This document shows, one piece after another, positions 3,698 through 17,347 of a DNA stretch of 64,000 nucleotides. This DNA is from a virus (Duplodnaviria > Caudoviricetes). Below the pieces are notes generated by a model, which saw only the letters and a program-made list of their open reading frames with translations, was not told the DNA's origin and searched no databases. The position numbers and the translations under genes are program-made. The stretch covers positions 16,402 through 80,401 of IMG/VR virus record IMGVR_UViG_3300031992_000072; one strand, 5' to 3'. The first letter of the stretch is position 1. Each line of letters starts with the position of its first letter.

Positions 3698-3760
3698 AAA
3701 AAGGAGCGAGTAAAAATACCCGCTCCTTTGCATAACAAACTAAATATGAAATATTACACA

Positions 3761-3830
3761 AGAAAAGAATGACAATACCCTGGAAACCTGAAAATTTATT
3801 TTCAGGTTTCCTGGGTTTTGTCTTTCTTTT
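3761..3830. repeat. Long imperfect inverted repeat downstream of the RT
   Basis: Perfect core GGAAACCTGAAAAT (3782-3795) / ATTTTCAGGTTTCC (3798-3811); extends with a few mismatches to about 30 bp. Confidence 0.85.
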
Positions 3831-5330: not shown

Positions 5331-6002
5331 TTACAAGACAAGTGTTTCGAAATTAAACGGATTCAGTATCATTGCTCTTTCAAGTTTCTCTTCTTTAACA
5401 AAATTAACAAAATTTATCACACCAGCCATTGCGACGCTCCACACAGTCGGCATTACGCAAAGTGATACTTTACATGCGCTGACAGGAACATTCTTTTCAG
5501 CTTCTGCGTGAGTAAAATCCATTGTTTCAAGTAACGCTTGAATATCAGAAGTTTTAGTCCAGTCAGCAGCATAATGCTGCGCGGAAACCAAAGCAGTCCT
5601 GAAATCGAACATCGCCTTAATATTCAGGTTATACTTATTCTCTTCGACAATGCGCTTCCTAAGCTCAATATTGTCAACACAAAGAAAAACATAACCATTC
5701 AGCTTATTTCCATCCCAGCCGTCTCCGTATAATTTAATTGTCTTCGCTGCTTCCGGATTAATCTCAACCCAACGGTCATATACACCTTCAAGTTTTGGTT
5801 TATAAAGATTTTTCGTAGTAAACATCTGATTAGCCAGATTATGTTCTTCAACAACGTCAAAGTCATACAAACTGACATTTTTCAAGCCAAATCTGGCAAG
5901 CAGCTCAGCCACCGTAGAACCGACTGAGCCGCAGCCAATGATATGAATTCTGTCTGTACACTTTTCAGGGTTAAAGAACTCAGCACTTTTTGCTAAATTC
6001 AC
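5331..6002 (-). CDS. ThiF/E1-like adenylating enzyme
   Basis: IIGCGSVG nucleotide-binding loop, DFDVVEEHNLANQ, CVDNIELR, downstream Cys (CKVSLC). GTG start overlaps the JAB stop. Confidence 0.9.
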   Translation of the reverse strand: MNLAKSAEFFNPEKCTDRIHIIGCGSVGSTVAELLARFGLKNVSLYDFDVVEEHNLANQMFTTKNLYKPKLEGVYDRWVEINPEAAKTIKLYGDGWDGNKLNGYVFLCVDNIELRKRIVEENKYNLNIKAMFDFRTALVSAQHYAADWTKTSDIQALLETMDFTHAEAEKNVPVSACKVSLCVMPTVWSVAMAGVINFVNFVKEEKLERAMILNPFNFETLVL

Positions 6003-14749: not shown

Positions 14750-15148
14750 TTAATACGGAACATCGTCTTCGTCAGGAGCTTCAGTCATTTCGATACCAGG
14801 AGCAGTAGCCCCTTTGCCATCAGAAATAAACCTGACCTGTTCAGCACGAACTTCCATCACAGTGCGAAGATTATTGTTCTTGTCCACATAGTTATTTAGT
14901 ACAACAGGACCGGAAACAAACACAGCACGGCCCTTCTTCAGAAATTTGGCACAAGTTTCGCCCAGTCCGCGCCAAGCATTAATACGGAAGAACTGTGTCT
15001 GTTTACGAACACCGTATCCTTCGTCTGCGGCAACAGTAAAATTGCATACTTTTGTTTTAACAATCTCTCCAGTTTCCTTATTCGGGTATTCCCGTTCATT
15101 CAGAATCGGGTCTGCAGTAAGGTTTCCAAGAACATCCAACCTATACAT
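14750..15148 (-). CDS. ssb: Single-stranded DNA-binding protein (SSB-1)
   Basis: LGNLTADP, NFTVAA, FFRINAW, KKGRAVFVSG; acidic tail DEDDVPY; start reset to ATG 15148. Confidence 0.9.
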   Translation of the reverse strand: MYRLDVLGNLTADPILNEREYPNKETGEIVKTKVCNFTVAADEGYGVRKQTQFFRINAWRGLGETCAKFLKKGRAVFVSGPVVLNNYVDKNNNLRTVMEVRAEQVRFISDGKGATAPGIEMTEAPDEDDVPY

Positions 15149-15465
15149 TTTTAGTCTCCTTTTCTTTTGTAAATTAATTTCTTTTGTCTGATGAGATTTA
15201 TAAATATACATATTGCTTTTTGGTTACAATATGAAATATTTTTGAAATTGTTTATTTTTATGCTATAAATGCAGTTTGTAATTCAAATGAAATTAAGTTA
15301 TTATTTGCTTTACGAATATGTTATGCAAGAATTACGTATAAAAATACACAAATCGTTATTTTGCTTGGTTTGTGTTGCTTAATATTATCTTTTGTCAAAT
15401 AGAATATTCATTCATTTTTCAAGAAAATTTATCTTCATCAAACTGCATTTATATAATACCACAAA

Positions 15466-16125
15466 TTAACCTTCGACCTTGACAATATGGTAACGACCAT
15501 ATCCGGAAGTGCGACCAGACCCGATGCCACCGCCAAATCCGGCGAGATTTACAATATTCAGAATCTGATCACGGCTATAAACATGATCCATGTAATCAAT
15601 CTGGAACTTTGCTTTCCAGTTATGGAAGTGATTCAGATGTACAGTAACAGGCTTGCCCTTCTTCGGGCTCATCAGCCGCTTTTCAACACTCCAGCCTTCA
15701 TAATCAACAGGAATCAACCCATTAGAGCAGCTAACATTAATAGCGTTTTTGAGCTTCGTAGAATACTGTGCAATTTCATTGCGAACAATAGCATCGCCAA
15801 AGCTCTGCTGAAGACCAAAAGCCGTAATGCAGGGCTTATTGTTTTCACGAAGATTATTCAGCATTTCTTCGTTGCATTCAGTATATGTATCTTCGCATTC
15901 AAGAGGTTTCTGCCAGTGAATTGACGTAATAATATCTTCCCAAACGTTGGGTCTTTCGTCAATGCTTTCACGGTCATCAGCCAGAAGTTTCCGTTCGTTA
16001 CGAGCATTCATCTTATTAAGAATCAGATCGCTATCACCTTCGATAGTAACCTGCATATGCTTAACTTTAGCTTCGATGCTCATCAGTTCCACAGTGTTAT
16101 TGTCTTTAATGGTTGCCTTTTTCAT
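15466..16125 (-). CDS. Stand-alone Cas7/RAMP-like protein
   Basis: N-terminal strand VTIEGDSDLIL; C-terminal glycine-rich loop AGFGGGIGSGRTSGYGRY; no other cas genes in the window. Confidence 0.7.
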   Translation of the reverse strand: MKKATIKDNNTVELMSIEAKVKHMQVTIEGDSDLILNKMNARNERKLLADDRESIDERPNVWEDIITSIHWQKPLECEDTYTECNEEMLNNLRENNKPCITAFGLQQSFGDAIVRNEIAQYSTKLKNAINVSCSNGLIPVDYEGWSVEKRLMSPKKGKPVTVHLNHFHNWKAKFQIDYMDHVYSRDQILNIVNLAGFGGGIGSGRTSGYGRYHIVKVEG

Positions 16126-16140
16126 TTTTAATTCCTTTCT

Positions 16141-16835
16141 TTTGTATTGTACTGTTGTGCGCTATTCTATTTTGTTGTAAGGTGTTGTTTTGAGCTATTT
16201 GCCAGCTCATAGGAGAACACACGTTCTCCTCGTATTATGGTATCGTTTGCTGCACTAAATTCTAATATTTTATTATATGCTGAGAGCTTATGCTCTCTTA
16301 TGAACTGGCAATTTATTCTGTCATGTTTTGTCGTATTATGATCTTTTGTGTACTTGCGCCATTGGCACAACAAGAGACTTATAATGCTTTACTGTCGTAT
16401 AGTATGGTATGCTGAATTATACTGAAGTTTACTTCAGAGAACTATAAGTCTCTGGTTGTACCAATGAAGCTGTCATATATTATTCTTAATTATCCTGTAT
16501 TATGCTTTCATGTCCTGATAAGGATGCAATAAATGTTATCTTATTTTGTCGTATGCTATATTAAAGTATGCTGTTATTAGCTGTGGTATATTTATGGATG
16601 CTATTGCATCCTTGTCAAGACATGAAAACTGGCTGGTATTACAGAGAACTTCTCTTAATTAAGCCAACAAAATTATTAATATTTATTCTATGTTTAACTA
16701 TGCTGTTCTGTCATATCCTGCGCTATTCTTTATGCCATGAAATTGACTGGCACTACAGAGAACTTCTATACTATGGTGTTTTATAATATCGTAAATTCTC
16801 ATAAGCTGTCCTATGCTTGAGAGCAGAAGCTCTCT
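16141..16835. repeat. Array of 5-nt-periodic tracts (TRY-NN on plus, RYA-NN on minus) separated by short hairpins and linkers
   Basis: 16143: TGT at TGT ac TGT tg TGC gc TAT tc TAT tt TGT. 16767: TAT ac TAT gg TGT tt TAT aa TAT cg. About 8 tracts; repeated linker ACTGG..TACAGAGAACTTCT at about 16628 and 16746. Confidence 0.8.
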
Positions 16836-16855
16836 ATAGTACCAGCCAAATTAAT

Positions 16856-17347
16856 TTAACTTGCCTGTTCCAGTTCCCGAATGGCTTTAAATACTGGTTC
16901 CAACTCTGTAAGAATCGAGTATTTGACCATAAACGCCTGAAGTTCTGATTTTGCCGTCATCAGAAGCTTTTCGTGAAGTGATGCATCCTGAACAATTAAT
17001 GTAATCGGACGATAACCAGTTTCTCCTTTAAGATTATGATACATTCTTAAAGGAACGCCAACCTTATCGGGTTTCTTTTCTTTATTCAGCCCAATCTCTA
17101 CAATATGCAAGTCGTGCATCACATCCGCAACCTGCTTTAGCCGATACTTTTCAGCAGCTTTTGTATCGTCCCATTCGATCAGTTTATGCATTTCTTTATG
17201 CTCATCCCGTGCCATATCCAGAATTTCTTCTGTTTCAGGATGTTCACCAAGAGCATAAATTTCTTCTGCTACCTTTTGCGCATCAGCTTTCTTGCGAAAA
17301 CTCTCTGAACCAGGTCTCCAGGTCGCAATAAAATTGCATTCCTTCAT
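16856..17347 (-). CDS. Conserved phage protein upstream of the repeat array and RAMP-like gene
   Basis: ILDMARDE..MHKLIEWDD..AAEKYRL; the same operon direction leads into the array. Confidence 0.7.
   Translation of the reverse strand: MKECNFIATWRPGSESFRKKADAQKVAEEIYALGEHPETEEILDMARDEHKEMHKLIEWDDTKAAEKYRLKQVADVMHDLHIVEIGLNKEKKPDKVGVPLRMYHNLKGETGYRPITLIVQDASLHEKLLMTAKSELQAFMVKYSILTELEPVFKAIRELEQAS

What the first reader, a model, noticed from the sequence alone, without database searches (positions are those of the whole stretch)
15230..17347. Solo Cas7/RAMP-like gene with a 5-nt-periodic repeat array: candidate RNA-guided system using a gapped code
Seen: between a conserved partner gene (16856-17347) and a RAMP-like gene with a glycine-rich loop (15466-16125) lie about 700 nt of non-coding DNA. 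It holds about 8 tracts of 7-12 pentamers with a near-constant triplet (TAT/TGT/TGC on plus; ATA/ACA/GCA on the coding strand) and variable dinucleotides, separated by short hairpins (GAGAGC/GCTCTC, AGGAGAAC/GTTCTCCT, GGATGC/GCATCC) and a recurring ACTGG..TACAGAGAACTTCT linker. A more degenerate 5-periodic tract also follows the RAMP gene (about 15250-15400). Known: Cas7 filaments bind guides with fixed periodicity and flip out bases. Inference: each tract is a guide whose constant triplets bind protein and whose NN pairs read a target. I recall similar viral RAMP plus pentamer systems (VIPR, GGY-NN register) being reported but cannot verify that here; the RYA register here would be a different code.
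Basis: partly seen in the sequence, partly recalled or inferred. Interest (0 to 1): 0.9.

Follow-up and report, generated by a model that had tools for sequence, protein, structure and literature searches.

The report
Phage VIPR system with ACA-NN guides
A gut phage carries a recently described CRISPR-like system (VIPR), but its guide RNAs are written with A-C-A instead of G-G-Y spacer letters. One guide spells the first two letters of eleven consecutive codons in the DNA primase gene of rival prophages.

Summary
The 730-nt gap at 16126-16855 has the strongest 5-nt periodicity in the window (z 8.3). It contains eight tracts of 7-13 pentamers with three semi-fixed and two free bases.

It lies between a Cas7-like RAMP gene (fold Z 9.3 to Cmr4/Csm3) and a partner gene. 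Partner, array and RAMP gene occur in that order in 78 of 80 related phage loci.

Three things differ from the characterised type II:
- The fixed triplet is R-Y-A (ACA 61%, only the last A invariant), not GGY.
- G·U pairs place the RNA on the gene strand (174 versus 47).
- Every other guide is enclosed by a 14-28 bp stem, instead of carrying a 3' pseudoknot tail.

The published 1-nt-skip code applies. Guide A matches at least 120 IMG/VR contigs exactly, 115 of them as the codons of GAWIRFNPV in a prophage primase-helicase gene. The same letters at 2-nt spacing match none. Close relatives carry AG instead of CG at the arginine codon, and that variant hits 61 primase genes that use AGA or AGG.

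A 2026 preprint already lists non-GGY VIPR repeats, and this scan found an AYA-NN VIPR in another gut phage. I therefore call this a new variant of a known kind.

The parts
16856..17347 (-). Partner (accessory, vap-like) gene, 163 aa
   Evidence: A homologue lies upstream on the same strand in 78 of 80 related loci. It matches phrog_15946 and no Pfam, PADLOC or NCBIfam family. The model has pLDDT 80.8 and no convincing fold match. It shows no similarity to SUSP1 vap1.
16126..16855 (-). vrRNA-like array of eight R-Y-A/NN pentamer tracts; stem-enclosed units alternate with inter-stem units
   Evidence: Period-5 z = 8.3. The same kind of array lies upstream of the gene in about 75 of 80 relatives.
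16743..16849 (-). Unit A: a 25-bp closing stem with G.U pairs enclosing guide A. Tract 16765-16816; NN = GC GG GC TG AT CG TT AA CC GT GA.
   Evidence: MFE -49 kcal/mol, z -8.2. The 1-nt-skip pattern hits the primase motif (A)GAWIRFNPV(D). The orthologous units in L249 and L250 keep the NN pairs while the triplets vary.
16681..16731 (-). Unit B: inter-stem tract of about 10 pentamers
   Evidence: Register shown. Its 18-nt 1-skip pattern had no exact hit in IMG/VR.
16504..16629 (-). Unit C: closing stem enclosing a tract of about 11 pentamers (16530-16584)
   Evidence: MFE -38.9 kcal/mol, z -8.8. No exact target hit.
16469..16508 (-). Unit D: inter-stem tract of about 8 pentamers
   Evidence: Register read from the fold map. 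Not searched in the collections.
16368..16458 (-). Unit E: closing stem enclosing a tract of about 8 pentamers
   Evidence: MFE -25.3 kcal/mol, z -4.2. The 16-nt seed gave 7 scattered hits, which I do not accept as a target.
16312..16351 (-). Unit F: inter-stem tract of 8 pentamers
   Evidence: Found by the tract finder.
16199..16311 (-). Unit G: closing stem with two inner hairpins enclosing a tract of about 10 pentamers
   Evidence: MFE -41.3 kcal/mol, z -6.8. The NN series is conserved in L249 and L250 with single-pair changes. No accepted target.
16136..16200 (-). Unit H: last tract, running up to the ribosome-binding site of the RAMP gene
   Evidence: Relatives show the same arrangement of a tract followed directly by the RBS.
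15466..16125 (-). Vipr-like RAMP gene, 219 aa
   Evidence: AlphaFold model pLDDT 82.5, pTM 0.76. The top structural matches are Cas7-family subunits: Cmr4 6s6b_I at Z 9.3 and Csm3 9g9a_D at Z 9.1. Pfam RAMPs scores below its cut-off (E 0.0048). There are 2,203 homologues in metagenomes.
15496..15540 (-). Codons of the glycine-rich loop (residues 196-210, GFGGGIGSGRTSGYG)
   Evidence: Invariant block in alignment A1. This is the only segment that aligns with SUSP1 Vipr; SUSP1 D177-W178-R179 fall on S-G-R here. The same loop of rival vipr genes is the target of a guide in relative L016.
15212..15465 (.). Intergenic stretch after the RAMP gene, claimed to be weakly 5-periodic
   Evidence: Not significant: z 1.2-1.3. 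I do not count it as part of the system in this window.

Best explanation
This is a VIPR-type RNA-guided DNA-silencing module of a gut or rumen phage, laid out as partner gene, guide-RNA array, Vipr (minimal Cas7-like RAMP) gene, all on the minus strand.

Shown here:
- The array holds eight guides made of R-Y-A/NN pentamers.
- It is read on the gene strand.
- Alternate guides are enclosed by long G.U-containing stems.
- The NN pairs of guide A equal codon positions 1-2 of eleven consecutive codons, (A)GAWIRFNPV(D), in the PriCT-2/AAA_25 primase-helicase gene of temperate phages of Firmicutes. The skipped base falls on the wobble position.
- Close relatives carry the variant for the other arginine codon family.
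- Guides of other relatives hit further conserved motifs of the same prophage module, and one hits the glycine loop of rival vipr genes.

Inferred from the published type II VIPR work:
- Vipr protomers coat each tract, one per pentamer. They hide the R-Y-A triplet and expose the NN pairs.
- The filament binds double-stranded DNA with one target base skipped per repeat and blocks transcription. Here that would be the replication gene of resident or co-infecting prophages.

Inferred from anatomy only:
- The long stems are processing signals, most simply for host RNase III. Cleavage would cut the transcript into both loop-derived and inter-stem guides.
- A stem that stayed closed could not coexist with an extended filament.
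For: Periodicity and tract anatomy. Conserved partner-array-gene module.

Pentamer logo from 88 unique tracts: A 0.86 / C 0.74 or T 0.22 / A 0.97 / N / N. Tract length is 8-20 repeats, most often 10-13.

RAMP fold.

Strand: helix mismatches are G.U on the gene strand 174 times against 47 (41 units against 4). Duplex energy is -33.1 on the gene strand, -27.9 on the opposite strand and -16.4 shuffled. All 6 substitutions in the unit A stem between the window and L249 keep pairing on the gene-strand RNA.

Target of guide A:
- The 18-nt 1-skip pattern gives at least 120 exact IMG/VR hits, 115 of 120 encoding GAWIRFNPV in frame.
- The same NN pairs at 2-nt skip give 0. Two other 18-nt patterns give 0 each.
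- The 22-nt pattern gives 16 hits in Lachnospiraceae, Oscillibacter, Clostridium, Streptococcus and Enterococcus genomes.
- 40 loci match 22/22.
- The gene is PriCT_2 + AAA_25, phrog_2597 DNA primase, and sits in a prophage.

The CG-to-AG guide variant in L249 and L250 hits 62 metagenome contigs, 61 encoding GAWIRFNPV(D/E) with AGA or AGG.

Guides of L052, L005 and L251 hit conserved in-frame motifs at fixed distances from the primase motif. This happens only under 1-nt skip: 6 guides at E<0.01 against 0.3 for shuffles, and 0-1 under the other skip rules.

An anti-vipr guide is present in L016. The window's genome has no self-target and no such primase.

Mechanism by analogy: 10.64898/2026.04.26.720920, .720927 and 10.64898/2026.10.15.759431.
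Against: - No RNA or binding data exist for this family.
- Sequence similarity to the characterised SUSP1 Vipr is marginal (hhalign probability 26%, glycine-loop region only).
- Only one of the window's eight guides has an accepted target. Guides B, C, E and G gave nothing convincing.
- The many primase hits are homologous sites, not independent events. Several of the relatives' hits are 17-18 of 20 matches.
- The stem-processing step is pure inference.
- The promoter scan was uninformative: 9 sites found against 9 expected.
Confidence: 0.85

Rival explanations
1. The system is the same, but the guides are transcribed from the plus strand, antisense to the genes. They would then read U-R-Y/NN (UGU, UAU, UGC), which is closer to the published GGY.
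For: TGY shares two of three positions with GGY. The genomic-language-model preprint lists TGH/NN and WGT/NN motifs, which could be this family read on the other strand (10.64898/2026.10.21.760802). Target matching cannot tell the strands apart.
Against: G.U pairs in the closing stems lie on the gene strand 174 to 47, and would be C.A mismatches on the other strand. All 6 orthologous stem substitutions keep gene-strand pairing. Stems are on average 5 kcal/mol more stable on the gene strand. The array sits between two co-oriented genes in 78 of 80 loci.
Confidence: 0.08
2. The periodic DNA is not a guide array. It acts at the DNA level (iterons, a replication origin or a curved-DNA element), or is a decaying microsatellite, and the RAMP-like gene is unrelated to it.
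For: The region is AT-rich and repetitive and lies next to an SSB gene. There is no direct evidence of transcription.
Against: The two free positions are close to uniform while the third triplet position is 97% A. NN pairs are conserved between orthologues while the 'fixed' triplets drift. Stems preserve RNA-type G.U pairing. Guide A and its variant spell a foreign gene's codons exactly. The array accompanies the RAMP gene in about 75 of 80 loci, whereas the SSB does so in only 4.
Confidence: 0.03
3. It is a remnant or a minimal form of a class 1 CRISPR-Cas system, with a Cas7 that uses ordinary contiguous crRNAs from an array elsewhere.
For: The best structural matches are Csm3 and Cmr4, and there is a weak Pfam RAMPs hit.
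Against: The protein matches no PADLOC or NCBIfam Cas model. No cas neighbour is conserved, and the locus has no CRISPR-type repeat-spacer array. The conserved neighbour is the pentamer array.
Confidence: 0.02

Closest known systems
Type II VIPR systems (Escherichia phage SUSP1, Pseudomonas fulva prophage): Vipr + vap1 + vrRNAs (bioRxiv 10.64898/2026.04.26.720920, .720927, 10.64898/2026.10.15.759431)
   Same: - Phage-borne two-gene locus without cas genes.
- Small single-RRM RAMP with a glycine loop.
- Guides of about 10-16 pentamers with 3 fixed and 2 free bases.
- Targets read with one skipped base that falls on codon wobble positions.
- Targets are rival mobile elements, including rival vipr genes.
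- The SUSP1 locus was re-read here.
   Different: - The fixed triplet is R-Y-A (ACA), with only its last A invariant, instead of GGY.
- SUSP1 residues D177 and W178, which read the two guanines, align with S and G here.
- There is no shared 3' tail or pseudoknot; alternate guides are enclosed by 14-28 bp stems.
- The array lies between the accessory gene and vipr.
- The accessory protein is unrelated to vap1.
- Protein similarity is marginal.
Non-canonical VIPR-like arrays in the genomic-language-model survey (21 clusters, 6,318 sequences; GAC/NN, CAC/NN, WGT/NN, TGH/NN; bioRxiv 10.64898/2026.10.21.760802)
   Same: Period-5 arrays with a non-GGY fixed trinucleotide and about 10 repeats, next to a protein with a Vipr-like fold. 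TGH/NN or WGT/NN may be this family read on the opposite strand.
   Different: The text of that work at hand gives motifs only. It gives no strand assignment, guide architecture, skip rule or targets for these clusters. ACA/NN is not named, and the figure listing the motifs could not be read.
Cas7 backbone filaments of class 1 CRISPR effectors (Csm3, Cmr4, type VII Cas7)
   Same: RAMP fold, glycine loop and thumb-like hairpins (Z 7-9.3). One protomer per fixed step of the guide, with flipped bases.
   Different: The step is 5 nt instead of 6, with three bases withheld from pairing per step instead of one. There are no CRISPR repeats, no spacer acquisition genes, and no large or small subunit genes.

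Membership tests
VIPR system (general) | Effector is a minimal RAMP: one RRM core, a glycine-rich loop, a thumb and a helical insertion | tested here: met
   Model pLDDT 82.5. Nearly all of the top 35 structural matches are Cas7, Cas5 or Cas6 RAMPs, best Z 9.3. The glycine loop at residues 196-210 is invariant in the family.
VIPR system (general) | Sequence homology to a published Vipr protein | tested here: inconclusive
   hhalign of the family profile against SUSP1 Vipr gives probability 26% and E 7e-4 over 49 columns around the glycine loop. The published seed X1U2U4 was not available.
VIPR system (general) | Guide RNAs made of tandem pentamers, 3 conserved + 2 hypervariable bases, about 9-16 per guide | tested here: met
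   Logo from 88 tracts; lengths 8-20, most often 10-13. The window has eight tracts of 7-13.
VIPR system (general) | Gapped recognition code: NN pairs match a target with one base skipped | tested here: met
   Tested in silico on natural targets only. Guide A gives at least 120 hits at 1-nt skip against 0 at 2-nt skip. The variant guide agrees. Family-wide excess appears only at skip 1.
VIPR system (general) | Minimal phage-borne locus with an accessory gene and no cas genes or CRISPR array | tested here: met
   The partner gene is conserved in 78 of 80 loci and other neighbours are not. No PADLOC or NCBIfam Cas hits. All relatives lie on viral contigs.
VIPR system (general) | Vipr-vrRNA ribonucleoprotein binds dsDNA and represses transcription | not testable with these tools
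   Needs RNA sequencing, pull-down, binding and reporter assays.
VIPR type II (SUSP1 clade) | Conserved triplet GGY (YNNGG repeat) | tested here: not met
   Gene-strand triplets are ACA 61%, ATA 19%, GCA 8.5% (647, 205 and 90 of about 1,060). SUSP1 tracts re-read here are GGT/GGC.
VIPR type II (SUSP1 clade) | Invariable 3' tail with a pseudoknot after each tract; vap1 accessory gene | tested here: not met
   Tracts are bounded by unit-specific closing stems, not a shared tail. The partner profile shows no similarity to vap1.
Published non-GGY VIPR-like clusters (10.64898/2026.10.21.760802) | Period-5 array with another fixed trinucleotide, about 10 repeats, adjacent Vipr-like fold | tested here: met
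   Whether this family is one of the 21 listed clusters could not be checked, because the figure is not held.
Class 1 CRISPR-Cas (type III/IV/VII Cas7) | CRISPR repeat-spacer array and companion cas genes (Cas5, Cas10 or Cas8, Cas6) | tested here: not met
   No such conserved neighbours. No Cas model hit. The only repeats are pentamers.

The most novel reading that the evidence does not exclude
The A-C-A/NN family would be a separate, very large VIPR type of gut and rumen phages (more than 2,200 protein clusters). In it the protein fixes essentially one base (the A before each NN) rather than GGY. Guides would be released from a single transcript by cleavage of long G.U-rich stems, yielding both loop and inter-stem guides. 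Guide repertoires would be tuned codon family by codon family (CGN versus AGR arginine) against the replication genes of resident prophages. If so, the gapped code is independent of the GGY scaffold, and the scaffold can be redesigned.
Probability: 0.45. Interest if true: 0.7.

Novelty: new variant of a known kind. Interest (0 to 1): 0.6.

Why it matters
VIPR was described only in 2026, and all mechanistic work rests on GGY/NN guides. This family shows, from natural targets, that the 1-nt-skip codon-reading code also works with a different scaffold triplet and a different guide packaging.

That separates the code from the scaffold. It also points to the protein pocket that sets scaffold specificity: S-G-R here against D-W-R in SUSP1.

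The family supplies a ready test case with a known natural target, the primase GAWIRFNPV motif, and a natural pair of guide variants for the two arginine codon families. It also suggests that gut phages use the system against the replication genes of resident prophages of Firmicutes.

Tried and rejected
- **Rfam families.** Scans of the window locus and of 19 related loci found no hammerhead or other family in the arrays, only tRNAs in L001.
- **GenBank phages.** No protein or DNA match.
- **PDB sequence search.** The family profile found nothing.
- **Promoter and terminator scan.** Equal to chance.
- **Downstream tract at 15250-15400.** Not significant.
- **Guides B and C.** No exact 1-skip hit in IMG/VR.
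- **Guide G.** A 16-nt seed hit 24 contigs, 17 of them in the PhoH motif KFIVARPM. The flanking NN pairs do not extend the match (17-18 of 22) and I judged these PhoH-carrying phages to be of marine type, so I treat it as a chance seed multiplied by homologues. The full 20-nt pattern found nothing in metagenomes.
- **Guide E.** Seven scattered hits, one in an SNF2 helicase at 19 of 20; not accepted.
- **Other window guides against the primase-bearing loci.** Only guide A hits them.
- **First pooled skip-rule test** on the 80 vipr loci. Underpowered, and its skip-3 'hits' were unmasked array self-matches.
- **Partner protein.** No fold match above Z 5.3, only a C-terminal helical hairpin. No similarity to SUSP1 vap1.
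- **Supplementary tables of the VIPR paper.** Not held, so a type I-VII assignment was not possible.
Full report
**1. The observation**

All genes at this locus are on the minus strand:
- a 163-aa partner gene at 16856-17347;
- a 730-nt gap at 16126-16855;
- a 219-aa gene at 15466-16125;
- a 254-nt gap at 15212-15465, followed by an SSB gene.

In the 730-nt gap, base identity at lag 5 is 0.371 and at lag 10 is 0.408, against 0.285 for shuffles. All of the top 15 sliding windows in the 64 kb fall inside this gap. With dinucleotide-preserving shuffles the combined lag-5/lag-10 statistic has z = 8.3, and 0 of 300 shuffles reach it.

Read on the gene strand, the gap contains eight tracts of 7-13 pentamers of the form R-Y-A + NN.

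**2. The protein**

Pfam gives only a sub-threshold RAMPs hit (E 0.0048). An AlphaFold model built on 22 homologues is confident (pLDDT 82.5, pTM 0.76).

Foldseek and the independent aligner both rank Cas7-family subunits first:
- Cmr4 6s6b_I, Z 9.3, 152 residues aligned, rmsd 4.1;
- Csm3 9g9a_D, Z 9.1;
- type VII Cas7 and gRAMP domains.

The C-terminal block GFG(G/L)GIGSGR(T/S)SGYGR is invariant and sits just before the last strand, as a RAMP glycine loop should.

The family is large and viral:
- 2,203 clusters at 90% identity;
- 156 clusters at 50% identity with E up to 0.001;
- 227 IMG/VR loci;
- a UniProt relative in an uncultured human-associated virus.

There is no match in GenBank phage genomes, PDB sequences, PADLOC or NCBIfam.

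**3. The module is conserved**

I fetched 80 related viral loci. About 75 have a period-5 region directly upstream of the gene. In 78, a homologue of the 163-aa partner lies upstream of that region on the same strand. The SSB and the other neighbours are not conserved. The unit is therefore partner gene, array, RAMP gene.

**4. The repeat**

Over 88 unique tracts the gene-strand logo is:

| Position | Composition |
|---|---|
| 1 | A 0.86, G 0.10 |
| 2 | C 0.74, T 0.22 |
| 3 | A 0.97 |
| 4 and 5 | close to uniform |

Tracts have 8-20 repeats, most often 10-13. In the window the triplets are looser (AUA, ACA, UUA, AGA), but the third A holds.

**5. Strand and architecture**

About two thirds of tracts are bracketed by sequences that pair with each other. 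Mean duplex energy is -33.1 kcal/mol on the gene strand, -27.9 on the opposite strand and -16.4 for shuffled flanks.

In 53 such units, transition mismatches inside the helix are G.U on the gene strand 174 times and on the opposite strand 47 times (binomial p 2.5e-18). By unit the count is 41 against 4. The units are related, so the p value overstates independence. The direction nevertheless runs against base composition.

Between the window and its 90%-identical relative L249, the stem of the first unit differs at six positions. Every change keeps a pair on the gene-strand RNA.

The RNA is therefore the gene strand and the motif is ACA/NN, not UGU/NN.

In the window, four units are enclosed by stems of about 14-28 bp (z -8.2, -8.8, -4.2, -6.8). 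They alternate with four tracts that lie between stems. No Rfam family, including hammerhead, occurs in the arrays.

**6. What is known**

VIPR systems were reported in April 2026 (10.64898/2026.04.26.720920). They comprise a phage RAMP (Vipr), an accessory gene (vap) and vrRNAs of 9-16 YNNGG repeats with a 3' tail. The NN pairs read double-stranded DNA with one base skipped. Seven types are described, with NNNGG, YNNNG and NNNNG variants.

The structures show two protomers holding each GGY through H17, D177, R138 and W178 and a pyrimidine pocket (10.64898/2026.04.26.720927). A third preprint shows that the skipped base follows codon periodicity in a satellite gene, and that solo guides target rivals' vipr genes (10.64898/2026.10.15.759431).

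A fourth preprint reports 21 clusters of VIPR-like arrays with non-GGY triplets: GAC, CAC, WGT and TGH (10.64898/2026.10.21.760802). TGH/NN or WGT/NN may be the present family read on the other strand. I could not see that figure.

This scan has also met an AYA-NN VIPR in another gut phage.

**7. Testing the code on natural targets**

Guide A (16816 to 16765) has NN pairs GC GG GC TG AT CG TT AA CC GT GA.

| Pattern | Collection | Exact hits |
|---|---|---|
| Same nine pairs, 2-nt skip | IMG/VR | 0 |
| Guide B, 18 nt, 1-nt skip | IMG/VR | 0 |
| Guide C, 18 nt, 1-nt skip | IMG/VR | 0 |
| Guide A, all eleven pairs (22 bases) | genome contigs | 16 |

- Of the 120 IMG/VR hits, 115 encode GAWIRFNPV in frame.
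- The 16 genome hits are in Lachnospiraceae, Oscillibacter, Clostridium symbiosum, Ruminococcaceae, Streptococcus and Enterococcus.
- 40 fetched loci match 22 of 22.
- The gene encodes a protein of about 670 aa with PriCT_2 and AAA_25 domains, phrog_2597 DNA primase.
- In an Enterococcus chromosome it lies with RusA and terminase genes, that is, in a prophage.
- The window's own genome has no such gene and no guide match above 75%.

**8. A natural control**

The orthologous guide in L249 and L250 (90% and 85% protein identity) keeps every NN pair except the fifth, which is AG instead of CG. Five of the ten 'fixed' triplets differ between the window and L249 at their first two positions.

CGN and AGR are the two arginine codon families. 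I predicted that the variant should hit primase alleles with AGA or AGG. The 20-base pattern found 62 metagenome contigs, 61 of them encoding GAWIRFNPV(D/E) with AGA (39) or AGG (22).

**9. Other guides of the family**

I searched 125 guides against the 198 fetched target loci.
- Under 1-nt skip, six guides reach E below 0.01, against 0.3 for shuffles. The 0-, 2- and 3-nt rules give 0, 1 and 0.
- Two of the six are there by construction.
- The others, from L052, L005 and L251, match conserved in-frame peptides: HHHSKGAQG in the same primase gene (about 940 nt downstream of the motif), and motifs mostly about 3.1 and 3.95 kb upstream of it. They match at 17-19 of 20 in 4-15 loci each.
- In the 80 vipr loci, a guide of L016 matches 18 of 20 to Y-A-G-F-G-L-G-I-G, the glycine loop of the vipr genes of L011 and L015.

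All of these matches are on the sense strand with the skip on the wobble base.

**10. What remains open**

Seven of the window's eight guides have no accepted target. The PhoH seed match of guide G does not extend and comes from what I judged to be marine-type phages, so I set it aside.

The partner protein has no recognisable fold and no similarity to SUSP1 vap1.

Similarity of the effector to SUSP1 Vipr is confined to the glycine-loop region. There, the guanine-reading D177 and W178 align with S and G. This fits a changed scaffold specificity, but it rests on a weak alignment.

Processing of the stems by RNase III is my inference. A filament of ten or more protomers cannot form on a loop whose ends stay paired, so the stems must be cut or opened.

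**11. Verdict**

The kind of system is already known, non-GGY repeats have been noted in print, and an AYA-NN case was found earlier in this scan.

Three things are added here:
- the strand assignment;
- the stem-enclosed/inter-stem architecture;
- evidence that the 1-nt-skip codon-reading rule holds for the ACA scaffold, with a concrete prophage primase target and a synonymous-codon guide variant.

I rate it a new variant of a known kind, interest 0.6.

Noticed in passing
15496-15540 (glycine loop codons) and L016:2874-2923: The window's Vipr and its closest relative P0005 read GFGGG where most relatives read GFGLG. That change (CTx to GGx) lowers the match to the anti-vipr guide of L016 from 16-18 to 14 of 20. 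It could be an escape from rivals' guides or mere drift.
   Followed up: partly
L054:3697-3761, L031:3651-3751, L040 and L042:3651-3801, L005:1351-1830: Some relatives also carry pentamer tracts downstream of the vipr gene; the L054 tract is stem-enclosed with 13 repeats. The window itself does not.
   Followed up: partly
16743-16767 and 16628-16652: The 3' arm of unit A recurs after tract B. The single 5' arm at 16825-16849 could therefore pair with either copy, enclosing one guide or two. This looks like a trace of unit duplication or an alternative fold.
   Followed up: no
related loci, 3' ends of tracts (e.g. L005:304-358, L006:2595-2669, L007:2258-2322): Many tracts in relatives end with ACATT followed by ACAAG or GCATC (ACATT is the penultimate pentamer in 17 of 88). 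This may be a short conserved 3' handle. The window's tracts lack it.
   Followed up: no
16856-17347: The partner protein has an invariant W within a conserved HK-x-(F/I)-(E/D)-W-(D/N)-D block and a C-terminal helical hairpin. A 34%-identical protein exists in an uncultured human-associated siphovirus (A0A8S5QID7).
   Followed up: partly
L001:1591-1659, 3731-3816, 5382-5454: Three tRNA genes flank the VIPR module in the 73%-identical relative on a 125-kb viral contig.
   Followed up: no
L250:3474-3866, L251:3492-3893 and window 14750-15211: An SSB gene follows vipr in the window and its two closest long relatives, but in only 4 of the 80 IMG/VR loci. The synteny is therefore recent, not part of the module.
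   Followed up: partly
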